A stretch of 64,000 nucleotides of DNA from NCBI GenBank assembly GCA_965217775.1, contig CBDCJH010000002.1:1152001-1216000 (forward strand). Direction: 5' to 3'. The first letter of the stretch is position 1; every line of letters begins with the position of its first letter. Below are positions 34,434-37,086 of this stretch, in pieces. The DNA comes from Acidobacteriota bacterium (GTDB lineage: Bacteria > Acidobacteriota > UBA6911 > RPQK01 > JAJDTT01). A program made the translations under genes and the position numbers. The notes beneath the pieces are model-generated. The model searched no databases. It saw only the letters and a list, made by a program, of their open reading frames with translations, and was not told where the DNA came from.

Positions 34434-34490
34434 TCAGAGGAGAAGGGAACAGTCACCTTCTCTCTTATGCCCCCTGCTCTGCTGGAGCGG

Positions 34491-34778
34491 CTATACTTCA
34501 ACGCCGAGCCGTCCGGGTCGCTCCGAGTACGACTCGCGAATAACGATGTGTACATCGCGCCCCAGAGCCGTCAGGAGGCGCAGAAGCCGTTCCATGGAGT
34601 ACTCTCGGAAGCTGCCCCGCAGCAGGCGCGACACATCGGGTTGAGACAGCCCGAGCAGCTTTGCTGCGTCGACCTGCTTGAGACGGCGCTCTCGAATGAT
34701 CTTGTCGATCTGCGTGACCAGTTCGGCCTTGAGCAGATGCGCGTCGGCAACCGGGAGTCCCAGGTCAGCGAATATGTT
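34491..34778 (-). pseudogene. XRE-family HTH antitoxin/regulator lacking its N-terminus
   Basis: NIFADLGLPVADAHLLKAELVTQI...LKQVDAAKLLGLSQPDVSRLLRG...YSMERLLRLLTALGRDV; cut at the tnpB element TIR; absent from the ORF track. Confidence 0.8.
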
Positions 34779-34779
34779 T

Positions 34780-36023
34780 GGGGCTTATATACCTAAGTGC
34801 CCTTGGCATACAGTTCTGGCACCACGCTTTCCCCAACGAGATACGTTCCGGTGCCCAGGGCAAGAACCCCAGCCCTGAGAATGTTCAGGGCGGCATTGTG
34901 GTCCCTGTCCATTCCAAGTCCGCAGGCCCTGCACCGGAAGGTTTCGCTCCGCCCTGGATCGTGGCGGGCGCCGCACCGGTGGCAGTCCTGCGATGTATAT
35001 GCGGGATTCACTTCTACGAACTTCCGACCGGCCCATTCTGCCTTGTACTGGAGTTGATTCCGCAGAAGCCCCCATGATTGCGTCATTATTTCTCGATTCA
35101 GCCCCTTCTTCTTCGAGCCCTTCGTTGCCATCCCTTGGATGTTCAGCTTCTCCACAGCGATCAGACCGTGCTCACGAATGATCCTGCTGGAGAGACGATG
35201 GCAGGCATTACGGTTTCGGACCGATTCCCGGTGACGGAGCCGAGATAGCTGTACGATCCGCTTCCGTCTGGTCTTGGAAATCTTCTTGCACCTGGAGACC
35301 TTTCTCTGCTGCTTTCGGATCCCCGCCCAGTCCCGTCGATTCCGTTCGATCCTCTCACCCGTGGACAGCACCGCTCGCTTGCGGACTCCCAGGTCGATCC
35401 CCACCGAAGACTCGCATTTCGGTAGCGGCGGCTTCTCCACCTCGTACGTCAGGTCCACATACACCCGGTTCGGCTTGCGGACAATCCGCAACGCTTTCAA
35501 TGGGCATCCGTCCGGCAACGGCCGGGACGGAAATATCCGGATCGTCGGGAAGCCCTTGGGCCGGATGGCGTAGCCCCGAGCGCGCTTCTTCACCAGGGTC
35601 GCTTTGGGGTCGACCACGTCGATGGTCTCCATCCTCGCAATGGGCCGGAATCGAGGATACCCCGGCTTCTCCCCCGCCTTGCAGCGACGGAAGAACGCCT
35701 TGAAGGCCCGGTCCAACCGCATCAACATCCCACGCTCCGCTTTGACCGCCACCGACCCAAGCCCCTCCGGATCGTCCTTCCTCTGGGAGGTCAACCCCTT
35801 CATCTGATCGTACAGGGTCACGCCACGTTGCTCGGATTCCCAGGCCGTTCTGCGTTCCTCCAGTGCAGCGTTGTACAGCCGATTCAGGATGGACCTCACC
35901 CGGTCCAACCGCCGGATTCCACCCTTGGACAGCTTGGCTCTGCACTGGATAGTTGCGTGGCCTTTCATGGTCGGAATTGTAACCCATCAGCCTGAATTCT
36001 CGGCACTTACGTATATAATCCCC
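34780..36023 (-). mobile_element. TIR-bounded element carrying only tnpB
   Basis: GGGGCTTATATACCTAAGTGCC (34780-34801) and rc of 36002-36023 GGGGATTATATACGTAAGTGCC (20/22 identical). Confidence 0.8.
34793..35968 (-). CDS. tnpB: RNA-guided endonuclease TnpB
   Basis: LYNAALEER and KPGYPRF; RuvC residues GIDLG / IAVEKL / DRDHNAALNI; zinc finger CHRC...CRAC; YKAEWAG and VNPAYTSQ. Confidence 0.95.
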   Translation of the reverse strand: MKGHATIQCRAKLSKGGIRRLDRVRSILNRLYNAALEERRTAWESEQRGVTLYDQMKGLTSQRKDDPEGLGSVAVKAERGMLMRLDRAFKAFFRRCKAGEKPGYPRFRPIARMETIDVVDPKATLVKKRARGYAIRPKGFPTIRIFPSRPLPDGCPLKALRIVRKPNRVYVDLTYEVEKPPLPKCESSVGIDLGVRKRAVLSTGERIERNRRDWAGIRKQQRKVSRCKKISKTRRKRIVQLSRLRHRESVRNRNACHRLSSRIIREHGLIAVEKLNIQGMATKGSKKKGLNREIMTQSWGLLRNQLQYKAEWAGRKFVEVNPAYTSQDCHRCGARHDPGRSETFRCRACGLGMDRDHNAALNILRAGVLALGTGTYLVGESVVPELYAKGT

Positions 36024-36561
36024 AATCCATTCAACAGGTTTCGGCAGGTCCGCGACGATGTCTTATTAAGGTGGTTCCGCCATATCCACGCAACCTGATT
36101 CTTGACATGCAGGCTGCCAGTGGGGCCTGTTGCCGCTTGAGCGGAACGCGCCAAGCCCTCCCGACATCTTTTCCCACCCGCCGGCAAGTAACCGCTGAAG
36201 ACCACCGAGGGGTTGGTCCAAGCGGAGACCGGCGCTTGGACCTGAACACTTCGACGCGGCGTTCCTCATCCAGATCGAGCGACAGGCCCTGAAGGCGGAC
36301 CTCACCGGCAAGATCACTGCGTTCGTCTTCAAGGACGACAAGGAGGAACTCGACGTGACGGAGCGTCGGGGAGAAGGAGACACGGGGAGAAGGGGACAGG
36401 TATCTTCTCTCTCCACGATGACCCGAAAGCCGTGATGCCTTGCGTTCGCTGCAAATTCCCGCCCGCTAACGCCCCATTGGATTCTGACGTTGAACCGCAC
36501 TTGTTGGGCGGATGTGAAGGCTGATTGTCCCCTGCGTCGGTATTCGTTCGATGCTGGCCCT

Positions 36562-36864
36562 CTACCTGAGAACGGCGTCAAGTGGTTGAATATCCGAGAC
36601 GTCGATCGATGCGCCTGCCTGGGCAAGATCGTAGCTCATCTGCATATTCATCCAGTAATGCGGCGTTGTCTTGAAGGCTTTCGCCAGTCGGAATGCAGTA
36701 TCCGGTGTTACCGACGTCTGGCCTCTTACGATGCGTTCTATACGCGTGCGTGGCACGCCCAGTTTCTTTGCCAAGGCCCCGGCGCTCATCTCGAGCGGCT
36801 TAAGGTACAGCTCGTCCAAAACTTCACCAGGATGCATCGGCACAAGGATATCAGCCATTTCCAT
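36562..36864 (-). CDS. higA: HigA family antitoxin
   Basis: MHPGEVLDELYLKPL...LAKKLGVPRTRI...VTPDTAFRLAKAFKTTPHYWMNMQMSYDL. Confidence 0.92.
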   Translation of the reverse strand: MEMADILVPMHPGEVLDELYLKPLEMSAGALAKKLGVPRTRIERIVRGQTSVTPDTAFRLAKAFKTTPHYWMNMQMSYDLAQAGASIDVSDIQPLDAVLR

Positions 36865-36870
36865 CGGTCC

Positions 36871-36966
36871 TCAGTGGTAGTCCACAATCTCGACTTCATC
36901 CGGTCCACGATCGGTCCAAACGAAGCAGATACGCCATTGCTGGTTGATGCGAACCGAATGTTGTCC
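36871..36966 (-). pseudogene. higB: HigB toxin C-terminal remnant
   Basis: GQHSVRINQQWRICFVWTDRGPDEVEIVDYH* directly upstream of higA; 5' part replaced by a REP cluster. Confidence 0.85.
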
Positions 36967-36967
36967 G

Positions 36968-37086
36968 GAATCGGGGGTTACAAACCCCCGCTCCCAGGAG
37001 ATGGAACTGCAGGGGCGATTTCTAATCGCCCGCTCTTCTCCGGTGAATCGTTACTCTGGAGTTCGGCGGTTGGAAACCGCCGCTCC
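36968..37086 (-). repeat. cluster of three GGAG-type REP-like hairpins
   Basis: CGGGGGTTACAAACCCCCGCTCC, GGGCGATTTCTAATCGCCCGCTC and CGGCGGTTGGAAACCGCCGCTCC. Confidence 0.7.

What the first reader, a model, noticed from the sequence alone, without database searches (positions are those of the whole stretch)
34780..36023. Intact TnpB packaged between 22-bp terminal inverted repeats with no transposase
Seen: a 1,244-bp unit holds only tnpB (RuvC D/E/D and zinc finger intact). It is bounded by GGGGCTTATATACCTAAGTGCC and GGGGATTATATACGTAAGTGCC (20/22). The tnpB stop codon lies inside one repeat, and the adjacent XRE gene is cut exactly there. Known: IS200/IS605 and IS607, the usual TnpB hosts, lack TIRs, and omegaRNA derives from the element's 3' end with the guide from flanking DNA. 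Inference: TnpB has been adopted by a DDE-type non-autonomous element; from memory the GGnnaTTAT ends resemble IS1595-family TIRs. The omegaRNA would have to end in the TIR, with a guide starting near AACATATTCGCTGACC. No TSD is visible.
Basis: partly seen in the sequence, partly recalled or inferred. Interest (0 to 1): 0.82.

Follow-up and report, generated by a model that had tools for sequence, protein, structure and literature searches.

The report
tnpB riding an IS1595-type transposon shell
A small mobile element carries only an RNA-guided nuclease gene (tnpB) and its guide RNA inside the inverted-repeat ends of a cut-and-paste transposon whose transposase is encoded elsewhere in the same genome, and its insertion sites carry a one-sided sequence footprint that suggests the nuclease helps decide which insertions survive.

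Summary
Window 34780-36023 is a 1,244-bp unit with 20/22 terminal inverted repeats (TIRs). It holds only an intact tnpB, whose stop codon lies in the right-end TIR.

- The genome holds 12 copies of this family plus diverged subfamilies.
- 22 of 26 copies examined, here and in sister genomes, have 8-bp AT-rich target-site duplications (TSDs).
- Empty orthologous sites exist for 2 of 2 copies tested.
- The window copy lacks a TSD because 375 bp of a Gp49-toxin/HTH_37-antitoxin pair was lost beside it.
- The same genome holds 1,762-bp IS1595-family insertion sequences. Their TIR is 21/22 identical, they make 8-bp TSDs, and they carry no tnpB.

New findings here:
- A covariation-supported omegaRNA occupies the last ~135 nt. 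Its pseudoknot uses the last 6 nt of the TIR.
- The two left/right TIR differences create the stop codon and one pseudoknot pair.
- The left flank shows a directional GG|A motif (21/22). The transposase-bearing IS shows it at only 9/34 half-sites. This looks like a TAM footprint.

DDE-associated TnpBs, and solo TnpBs mobilised in trans, were published in 2023. IS1595 is not named in the texts I could read. An earlier scan note (e1-3060668) describes a similar element in another genome, without a partner.

The parts
34780..36023 (-). Whole 1,244-bp non-autonomous element (tnpB orientation = minus strand)
   Evidence: In the own genome, 11 full-length matches at 93-100% identity end exactly at these bases. 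A 12th copy is interrupted by a 158-bp insert.
36002..36023 (-). Left-end TIR (GGGGATTATATACGTAAGTGCC read inward)
   Evidence: It is 21/22 identical to the TIR of the 1,762-bp IS1595-family IS of the same genome.
34780..34801 (+). Right-end TIR (GGGGCTTATATACCTAAGTGCC read inward). It differs from the left TIR at positions 5 and 14.
   Evidence: Position 14 (34793) supplies the G of the TAG stop. Position 5 (34784) supplies G184 of the pseudoknot.
34793..35968 (-). tnpB, 391 aa plus TAG stop, RuvC D-E-D and zinc-finger cysteines conserved
34780..34914 (-). Predicted omegaRNA scaffold (about 135 nt), overlapping the tnpB 3' end and ending at the last base of the element
   Evidence: Alignment A1 of 15 family members. 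39 pairs in 7 helices are 97.3% paired, against 36-48% when partners are slid. 15 pairs change on both sides, against 2 in each slid control, and 0/500 shuffles reach the covariation score. The single-sequence fold has z = -2.99. Model R1 finds it at 16 places in the genome.
34865..34870 (-). Pseudoknot arm 1: loop GGGGUU of the helix formed by 34872-34877 with 34856-34861
   Evidence: Helix 4. It pairs with 34780-34785. The pairs covary (GGGAAUU with AAUUCCC) in L037 and L113.
34780..34785 (-). Pseudoknot arm 2: the last 6 nt of the element (AGCCCC), which are also the outermost TIR bases
   Evidence: helix 4: 6 pairs, 2 with changes on both sides, 94.4% of cells paired.
34760..34779 (-). Predicted guide segment of the omegaRNA (right flank, AAACATATTCGCTGACCTGG); inferred, not shown
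   Evidence: Position directly after the scaffold end. Established TnpB biology, where the guide comes from DNA flanking the right end (passages in PMC10691335).
34488..34779 (-). 5'-truncated HTH_37 (XRE/HigA-like) antitoxin gene: 95 of 114 codons left, plus stop
   Evidence: Pfam HTH_37 at 4e-25. Intact orthologue in G010 locus L175, 1876-2220.
36024..36062 (-). Remnant (about 12 codons) of the 5' end of a Gp49/HigB-like toxin gene, abutting the left TIR
   Evidence: The orthologue in G010 (L175 2207-2575, 122 aa) matches Pfam Gp49 at 6e-21. 375 bp present in G010 are missing here.

Best explanation
The unit is a non-autonomous insertion sequence of the IS1595 family. It is a cut-and-paste (DDE-type) transposon shell whose transposase gene has been replaced by tnpB and its omegaRNA.

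Shown:
- It is multi-copy, ends at 22-bp TIRs and makes 8-bp AT-rich target duplications.
- The same genome holds transposase-bearing IS1595-family IS with near-identical TIRs and the same duplication length, and these carry no tnpB.
- tnpB is intact in most copies.
- A conserved, covarying RNA structure fills the last ~135 nt and uses the outer 12 nt of the right TIR as scaffold, through helix 7 and the pseudoknot.

Inferred:
- The IS1595 transposase moves the element in trans.
- The omegaRNA reads out of the right TIR into the flank. Its guide is the duplicated 8-mer plus downstream DNA, or begins a few bases into the 8-mer.
- TnpB-omegaRNA cuts alleles of the same locus that lack the element when a TAM lies at the left flank/8-mer border (about 5'-GG|A). 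Recombinational repair from a filled copy then restores or spreads the insertion.
- Insertions that land without the TAM are lost. This would explain the one-sided GG|A footprint.

The window copy lost its left duplication, most of a toxin gene and the start of its antitoxin gene through an adjacent 375-bp deletion. That is the kind of rearrangement expected of a DDE element.
For: Copies and ends:
- The own genome gives 18 DNA matches, and all 11 full-length ones end exactly at the TIRs.

TSDs:
- 22 of 26 copies have a TSD of at least 7/8, and 19 of them are perfect.
- L113 was mis-paired by that script. Read by eye it has a perfect 8-mer.
- Empty sites with one copy of the 8-mer were found for 2 of 2 copies tested, in 1 and 3 sister genomes.

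Partner:
- 9 PF12762 matches in the own genome.
- Four intact 1,762-bp IS plus one degraded copy carry the TIR GGGGATTATATACGAAAGTGCC and 8-bp TSDs.
- The transposase matches NCBIfam IS1595 at 177 bits (cut-off 75) and Pfam DDE_Tnp_IS1595 at 1.8e-38.
- All 6 genomes with this tnpB clade also have IS1595 transposases. 2 of 3 genus members without the clade have them too.

No alternative transposase:
- Only 3 weak Y1 matches and 1 serine recombinase are in the genome, none within 15 kb of a copy.

TnpB:
- Catalytic and zinc-finger residues are invariant.
- 12 copies in the genome have open frames without stops.

TAM-like footprint:
- At the left flank, -1 is G in 21/22, -2 is G in 15/22 and TSD position 1 is A in 21/22.
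- The mirror motif at the right side occurs in only 5/22 (hand count).
- Transposase-bearing IS show it at 9/34 half-sites, 5/17 and 4/17 when oriented by the transposase gene.
- Fisher p = 2e-7 and 1e-6.
- The footprint also holds in subfamilies whose outer TIRs are symmetric: 6 of 6.

Deletion:
- A contig from an RNA library shows the ancestral form, with 372 letters in place of the element.

Literature:
- IS1595-family elements make AT-rich 8-bp repeats (PMC12561309, passages).
- DDE-linked TnpBs with inverted ends, and solo TnpBs with the same ends, are reported (PMC10691335, passages).
Against: - No transposition, cleavage or RNA end was measured.
- The RNA data are assembled contigs only, and these cannot show strand, ends or level.
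- No sigma-70-like promoter was found on the tnpB strand, and Rfam has no match.
- The TAM is inferred from 22 insertion sites in one genus. An unknown directional preference of the transpososome on these particular ends is not excluded.
- DDE excision leaves a double-strand break by itself, so the benefit of TnpB to such an element is debated (review PMC13565253, passage).
- Which of the several IS1595-type transposases in the genome acts on the element is not known.
- The 15 sequences used for covariation are relatives, so the counts overstate the number of independent events.
Confidence: 0.8

Rival explanations
1. Passive cargo. The element is an IS1595-type shell moved in trans, but tnpB/omegaRNA is only a passenger that does not affect the element's fate. 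The GG|A bias would come from the transposase acting on these ends, or from some other selection.
For: IS1595-type IS in this genome carry other passengers. Examples are a 110-aa Mrr_cat/NA-iREase1-like ORF in the 1,762-bp IS and a 4,449-bp version with extra ORFs. DDE excision already leaves a break, so TnpB may add little (review passage).
Against: The transposase-bearing IS with the same outer TIR show no directional bias (5/17 and 4/17). The right TIR has been re-coded to serve the stop codon and the pseudoknot, and the pseudoknot covaries with the TIR end. TnpB is kept intact in 12 copies.
Confidence: 0.15
2. An ordinary IS200/IS605 (IS1341-type) or IS607 element moved by a Y1 or serine TnpA, with the inverted repeats being incidental.
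For: TnpB is closest in sequence to IS200/IS605-type TnpBs: NCBIfam IS200_TnpB gives 165 bits, below its cut-off of 425, and the best natural PDB hit is ISDra2 TnpB. A 28%-identical relative sits next to a Y1 TnpA (L052).
Against: Those families have no TIRs and make no TSDs (review passages). Here both are present in 22 of 26 copies. No Y1 or serine recombinase gene lies near any copy.
Confidence: 0.02
3. A domesticated TnpB (for example a TldR-like RNA-guided regulator) that is no longer part of a mobile element.
For: Exapted TnpBs exist (PMC10691335, passages).
Against: The catalytic residues are intact. There are 12 near-identical copies at different loci with TSDs. The element is present in only some genomes of one genus (6 of 9).
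Confidence: 0.02

Closest known systems
DDE-transposase-associated TnpB branches (DDE-1 to DDE-6) of Altae-Tran et al. 2023, PNAS (PMC10691335; passages read)
   Same: Prokaryotic TnpB sits inside inverted terminal repeats of DDE transposons. The TnpB 3' end lies close to the transposon end. Some solo TnpBs are flanked by ends nearly identical to those of transposase-bearing elements, which implies mobilisation in trans.
   Different: The DDE families named in the texts I could read are IS630 (PNAS main text) and ISL2, IS630 and IS1031 (review PMC13565253). IS1595 has 0 occurrences in both. Here the partner IS carries no tnpB at all.
Fanzor1 element of Spodoptera frugiperda ascovirus 1a and Fanzor2* elements (Yoon et al. 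2023, PMC10711439; passages read)
   Same: A non-autonomous TIR/TSD transposon that encodes only the RNA-guided nuclease. TIR bases form part of the guide-RNA scaffold, and the RNA reads out across the transposon end.
   Different: Those elements are eukaryotic or viral, the TSD is described as folded into the scaffold, and Fanzor1 RNAs lack the pseudoknot. Here the host is bacterial, the 8-bp TSD is variable in sequence, and a TnpB-type pseudoknot is kept and built from the TIR tip.
IS1341-group elements of IS200/IS605 (tnpB only)
   Same: Small multi-copy elements that encode only TnpB and depend on a transposase in trans. The omegaRNA overlaps the tnpB 3' end.
   Different: They have no TIRs and no TSDs. 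Their ends are hairpins cut by a Y1 transposase, and the target motif equals the TAM (review passage).
IS1595 family with passenger genes (Siguier, Gagnevin and Chandler 2009; cited in PMC12561309; content recalled, paper not read)
   Same: TIRs beginning GG, 8-bp AT-rich duplications, and some members carry passenger genes. The end motif ggnnatTAT of the ISNwi1 subgroup, as I recall it, fits GGGGATTAT.
   Different: Those elements keep their own transposase. This one has none, and its passenger is tnpB plus an RNA that shares bases with the TIR.
Earlier scan note e1-3060668 (another genome)
   Same: A tnpB-only element with 24-bp TIRs and an 8-bp duplication, compared with the same DDE branches.
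   Different: That copy was decaying and no partner transposase was found. Here the copies are intact and the partner was identified. Protein-word look-up found no sequence likeness to earlier windows.

Membership tests
IS1595 family (as a non-autonomous derivative) | Encodes a DDE transposase with the IS1595 catalytic domain | tested here: not met
   The element's only family-matching ORF is tnpB. The transposase is encoded by separate IS in the same genome.
IS1595 family (as a non-autonomous derivative) | Terminal inverted repeats shared with transposase-bearing members | tested here: met
   21/22 identity between the left TIR and the TIR of the 1,762-bp IS. Likeness extends about 26 nt inward.
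IS1595 family (as a non-autonomous derivative) | 8-bp, AT-rich target-site duplication | tested here: met
   22 of 26 tnpB copies. 17 transposase-bearing copies have perfect 8-bp TSDs among 37 loci examined. Empty sites found. Literature value for an IS1595-family IS in PMC12561309.
IS1595 family, ISNwi1 subgroup | End consensus of the subgroup as listed by ISfinder | not testable with these tools
   The consensus is recalled, not retrieved. A search for it found 0 papers, and ISfinder is not on hand.
IS200/IS605 (IS1341 group) | No TIRs, no TSDs, subterminal hairpins, Y1 TnpA in cis or trans | tested here: not met
   TIRs and TSDs are present. There are only 3 weak Y1 matches, none near a copy.
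IS607 | Serine recombinase TnpA, no TIRs or TSDs | tested here: not met
   The genome has one Resolvase-domain gene, more than 160 kb from the nearest copy. TIRs and TSDs are present.
TnpB / OMEGA RNA-guided nucleases | RuvC D-E-D triad and zinc-finger cysteines | tested here: met
   D192, E273, D354/D356, C329, C332 and C349 are invariant. NCBIfam guided_TnpB gives 215 bits against a cut-off of 100. ISDra2 TnpB aligns over residues 26-375.
TnpB / OMEGA RNA-guided nucleases | Structured omegaRNA at the 3' end of tnpB that ends at the element boundary, with a pseudoknot | tested here: met
   Covariation counts. Genome-wide matches occur only at element right ends. Expression and RNA ends are not shown.
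TnpB / OMEGA RNA-guided nucleases | TAM-dependent, guide-dependent DNA cleavage | not testable with these tools
   Only an indirect footprint is available: GG|A at the left flank in 21/22 against 9/34 in controls.
DDE-associated TnpB branches of Altae-Tran et al. 2023 | Placement of the protein within one of the named branches DDE-1 to DDE-6 | not testable with these tools
   Branch alignments and lists are in supplements, which are closed. The main text gives no sequences.

The most novel reading that the evidence does not exclude
This is a bacterial RNA-guided homing drive grafted onto a DDE cut-and-paste insertion sequence of the IS1595 family.
- The transposase scatters copies into WWWNNWWW sites in either orientation.
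- Only insertions that place a 5'-GG|A TAM next to the left end can be copied by TnpB-omegaRNA into empty alleles, so only they persist. TnpB activity is therefore readable directly from the genome as a one-sided footprint.
- The right TIR has been re-coded at two positions so that the same 22 nt serve as transposase binding site, tnpB stop codon and omegaRNA pseudoknot.
Probability: 0.5. Interest if true: 0.75.

Novelty: new variant of a known kind. Interest (0 to 1): 0.62.

Why it matters
TnpB is the ancestor of Cas12 and a compact genome-editing nuclease. Its natural role has been worked out for IS200/IS605 and IS607, which excise without scars. Whether and how it helps DDE cut-and-paste elements in bacteria is an open point: the 2026 review calls the association rare and its benefit uncertain.

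This family offers a clean natural test case:
- an identified transposase partner that carries no tnpB;
- many intact copies, with empty sites in sister genomes;
- an RNA whose pseudoknot is built from the transposase's own binding site;
- a predicted G-rich TAM that differs from the transposase's own target preference.

Because the TAM and the target preference differ, the contribution of TnpB can be separated from that of the transposase. That is not possible in IS605, where the two motifs coincide. The family also parallels what Fanzors did in eukaryotes.

Tried and rejected
- Rfam scan of the element: one sub-threshold match (COG3860 RNA, 16.8 bits against 42.5, E 0.69). It is irrelevant.
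- Sigma-70 promoter and terminator scan: nothing on the tnpB strand. This says little for Acidobacteriota.
- RNA evidence: 8 runs on record as RNA hold part of the stretch. Four were laid, and all are assembled contigs.
  - Contigs cover most of tnpB and stop at 34777-34779 with loose ends that match other copies' flanks.
  - One 177-nt contig spans 34633-34809 but has only 30 letters inside the element, below the 31-letter rule.
  - None of this shows strand, ends or expression, so I do not use it as evidence for the omegaRNA.
- My first automatic orientation of relatives' copies was wrong and was redone. In one search the script paired the wrong ends for L113, which I read by eye.
- Search for TIR-bounded relatives among more distant TnpBs:
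  - Of 32 genome loci examined, only the Acidobacteriota clade and one SAR202 locus (L048) had convincing TIRs.
  - Of 80 metagenome loci, 64 with near-full-length matches were examined. 5 had an inverted repeat of 14 or more matches, and only L187 (21/22) was convincing. No exact flanking repeat was found there.
- Ancestry of the protein (IS605-type or IS607-type) was not resolved. One 28%-identical relative has a Y1 TnpA next to it, and no tree was built.
- Literature for the ISNwi1 end consensus: not found, and one id was not held.
- tRNA scan of the repeat-rich flank: none found.
Full report
**What is there**

Window 34780-36023 is a 1,244-bp unit bounded by GGGGCTTATATACCTAAGTGCC (34780-34801) and the reverse complement of GGGGATTATATACGTAAGTGCC (36002-36023). 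The two arms agree at 20 of 22 positions. They are the only two matches in the window, and 100 shuffles gave none. The repeat finder extends the pair to 24 nt.

The unit holds one ORF with a family match, tnpB, on the minus strand at 34793-35968 (391 aa).
- It matches Pfam OrfB_IS605 and Cas12f1-like_TNB.
- It matches NCBIfam guided_TnpB at 215 bits against a cut-off of 100. It stays below the cut-offs of the IS200-type model (165 against 425) and the IS607-type model (126 against 350).
- D192, E273, D354/D356 and the zinc-finger cysteines are invariant in an alignment with five relatives.
- ISDra2 TnpB is the best natural solved relative (E 2e-32).
- The TAG stop (34793-34795) lies inside the right TIR.

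**It is a mobile, multi-copy element with target duplications**

The window's genome (6.43 Mb, 2 contigs) gives 18 DNA matches.
- 11 are full length at 93-100% identity and end exactly at the TIRs.
- A 12th copy is interrupted by 158 bp.
- There is one 85%-identical subfamily copy and several remnants.

I examined 26 copies, 13 from this genome and 13 from sister genomes. 22 have a TSD of at least 7/8, and 19 of those are perfect. One further copy (L113) was mis-paired by my script and has a perfect 8-mer when read by eye.

I looked for orthologous sites for two copies. Sister genomes have the empty site with a single copy of the 8-mer, in one genome for the first copy and three genomes for the second.

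**The partner transposase**

- The genome has 9 matches to the IS1595 DDE domain.
- A fuzzy search for the TIR found it not only at the tnpB copies but also bounding four intact 1,762-bp elements and one degraded one. Their TIR, GGGGATTATATACGAAAGTGCC, is 21/22 identical to the tnpB element's left TIR, and they have 8-bp TSDs.
- Their 335-aa ORF matches NCBIfam 'IS1595 family transposase' (177 bits, cut-off 75) and Pfam DDE_Tnp_IS1595.
- They also carry a 110-aa Mrr_cat/NA-iREase1-like ORF but no tnpB and no match to the omegaRNA model.
- Other transposase types do not offer an alternative. There are three weak Y1 matches and one serine recombinase gene in the genome, none near a copy.
- All six genomes that hold this tnpB clade also hold IS1595 transposases. 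Two of three genus members without the clade hold them as well. So the tnpB element is never seen without a potential helper, while the helper occurs without it.

**Distribution**

Record titles of related loci name Acidobacteriota MAGs. With E below 1e-60, the clade was found in 6 of 9 genomes of one genus, including the window's own, and in 0 of 52 other relatives searched. Its subfamilies are 72-87% identical at protein level. They have different inner TIR sequences but share the outer GGGG(A/C)TTATA and the 8-bp TSD.

The next relative, a SAR202 protein at 45% identity, sits between different, perfect 17-bp TIRs with a 7-bp repeat.

Among 64 more distant metagenomic relatives examined (26-38% identity), only one had convincing TIRs. 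One 28%-identical relative sits next to a Y1 TnpA. TIR shells are therefore the exception around this part of the TnpB tree.

**The omegaRNA and its overlap with the TIR**

I aligned the last 175 nt of 15 family members.
- The consensus fold plus a hand-added pseudoknot gives 39 pairs in 7 helices.
- 97.3% of cells are paired, against 36-48% when the partners are slid by 1-3 columns.
- 15 pairs change on both sides, against 2 in every slid control.
- 0 of 500 shuffles reach the covariation score.
- The sequences are relatives, so these counts overstate the number of independent events. The slid controls keep relatedness, however.

Two helices use TIR bases.
- Helix 7 pairs UGUAUG, just 5' of the TIR, with the TIR's UAUAUA.
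- The pseudoknot pairs the loop GGGGUU (34865-34870) with the last six bases of the element (34780-34785).
- In the subfamily whose TIR tip is AATTCCC, the loop reads GGGAATT. That is a two-pair compensatory change.

The scaffold therefore ends at the last base of the element, and the guide would begin at AAACATATTCGC. Alternatively it begins a few bases further on, if the first bases of the 8-mer are read as part of the TAM and scaffold. Yoon et al. describe this for the flanking nucleotide of IS607 TnpBs and for the TSDs of Fanzors (PMC10711439, passages).

The two positions at which the right TIR differs from the left both have a visible reason.
- Position 14 (34793) supplies the G of the TAG stop. 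With the left-end base the codon would read TAC, and the frame would run out of the element.
- Position 5 (34784) supplies the G that pairs with U in the pseudoknot.

A covariance model built from the structure finds 16 places in the genome. These are 13 copies and 3 remnants, one of which is a 466-bp internally deleted derivative that keeps both TIRs and the RNA.

**A one-sided footprint at the insertion sites**

I reconstructed the 22 sites in tnpB orientation.
- The base before the 8-mer on the left-end side is G in 21.
- The base before that is G in 15.
- The first base of the 8-mer is A in 21.
- The mirror-image motif on the right side occurs in 5 of 22 (hand count).

As a control I used 17 transposase-bearing IS1595-type copies with perfect TSDs, out of 37 loci examined.
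- They show a symmetric WWWNNWWW preference.
- They show the G|A motif at 9 of 34 half-sites: 5/17 and 4/17 when oriented by the transposase gene.
- The difference from the tnpB elements is large (Fisher p = 2e-7).

The bias also holds in subfamilies whose outer TIRs are symmetric (6 of 6). The small left/right TIR difference is therefore an unlikely cause.

The simplest reading is that GG|A is, or contains, the TAM. An empty allele reads flank-GG|8-mer-flank, which is TAM plus guide match. The filled allele reads ...CCCC|8-mer at the right junction and is protected. Insertions that land without the motif, or in the other orientation, cannot be copied into empty alleles and are lost. This step is inference. 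No cleavage or homing was measured.

**Why the window copy has no TSD**

In sister genome G010 the two flanks of the element are separated by 375 bp. That segment holds most of a 122-aa Gp49/HigB-like toxin gene and the first 19 codons of the 114-aa HTH_37 antitoxin. A contig from an RNA library shows the same ancestral arrangement, with 372 letters in place of the element.

In the ancestral sequence the right flank reads gcgg|AAACATAT, a site that fits the footprint. The copy therefore most likely inserted there and then lost its left duplication and 367 further bases. An adjacent deletion of this kind is typical of DDE elements; that statement rests on established knowledge and was not tested here.

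**What is known**

- IS200/IS605 and IS607 have no TIRs and make no TSDs (review PMC13565253, passages).
- Altae-Tran et al. 2023 (PMC10691335, passages) report six DDE-associated TnpB branches with inverted terminal repeats. They note solo TnpBs within ends nearly identical to those of transposase-bearing elements and infer mobilisation in trans.
- The review lists ISL2, IS630 and IS1031 as the DDE families involved and calls such associations rare in prokaryotes.
- IS1595 occurs 0 times in both main texts.
- A full-text search for TnpB together with IS1595 gave 9 papers, none on this subject by title or abstract.
- Yoon et al. describe a viral non-autonomous TIR/TSD element that encodes only a Fanzor1 and whose RNA scaffold includes TIR bases. 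That is the nearest architectural parallel.

**Verdict**

The kind is known since 2023: TnpB in a DDE shell, mobilised in trans.

Four things appear new here:
- the IS1595-family partner, which itself carries no tnpB;
- the demonstration that the TIR tip doubles as the omegaRNA pseudoknot, with covariation;
- the re-coding of the right TIR;
- the directional GG|A footprint, which separates the nuclease's motif from the transposase's target preference.

I rate it a new variant of a known kind, of moderate to good interest.

Noticed in passing
window 37011-37086: A stretch of about 76 nt matches 100 or more places in each of five sister genomes at 77-100% identity. In G008 it forms tandem runs with an 80-bp period. 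It is not a tRNA. Probably a MITE or REP-like repeat.
   Followed up: no
window 34437-36873 and G006:C1:233432-237165: The toxin-antitoxin modules around the element are ordered differently in G010 (window 36554-36873 lies directly before window 34437-34779). In G006 they recur three times with a 697-bp period. This looks like a cassette-like, rearranging region.
   Followed up: no
G000:C2:4647309-4648714 (L012/L015): One tnpB copy is 1,406 bp long because of a 158-bp insert. The two halves of the match overlap by 4 nt (query 2-221 and 218-1244). Size and 4-bp duplication fit the 158-bp MITE family described in earlier scan notes e1-3093536 and e1-4371208. The sequences were not compared.
   Followed up: partly
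G000:C2:4150407-4150872: A 466-bp internally deleted derivative keeps both TIRs and a full-scoring omegaRNA (143 bits) but only a tnpB remnant. Its flanks match those of a full-length copy in G010 (L042), so the deletion happened in place.
   Followed up: partly
L048:2881-4262 (SAR202 MAG contig) and L187 (metagenome contig): Two other tnpB-only units have unrelated TIRs. L048 has a perfect 17-bp TIR, GAGACGATTTCACAAAT, with a 7-bp flanking repeat. L187 has a 21/22 TIR, GGTAGAGTCTCAGTTTGAAATC, with no exact flanking repeat. Their transposase families are unknown.
   Followed up: no
G000:C2:445385-447146 (L021:909-1241, minus strand): Downstream of its transposase, the 1,762-bp IS1595-family IS carries a 110-aa ORF with weak matches to NA-iREase1 (1.4e-7) and Mrr_cat (2.3e-4). 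This is a restriction-endonuclease-like passenger.
   Followed up: partly
G000:C2:321834-326282: A 4,449-bp unit is bounded by related TIRs (GGGGATTACTAACAATAGTGCC) with flanks GTTATTTT and AATATTTT. It holds the C-terminal part of an IS1595-type transposase and several other long ORFs. The ORFs were not scanned against family libraries.
   Followed up: no
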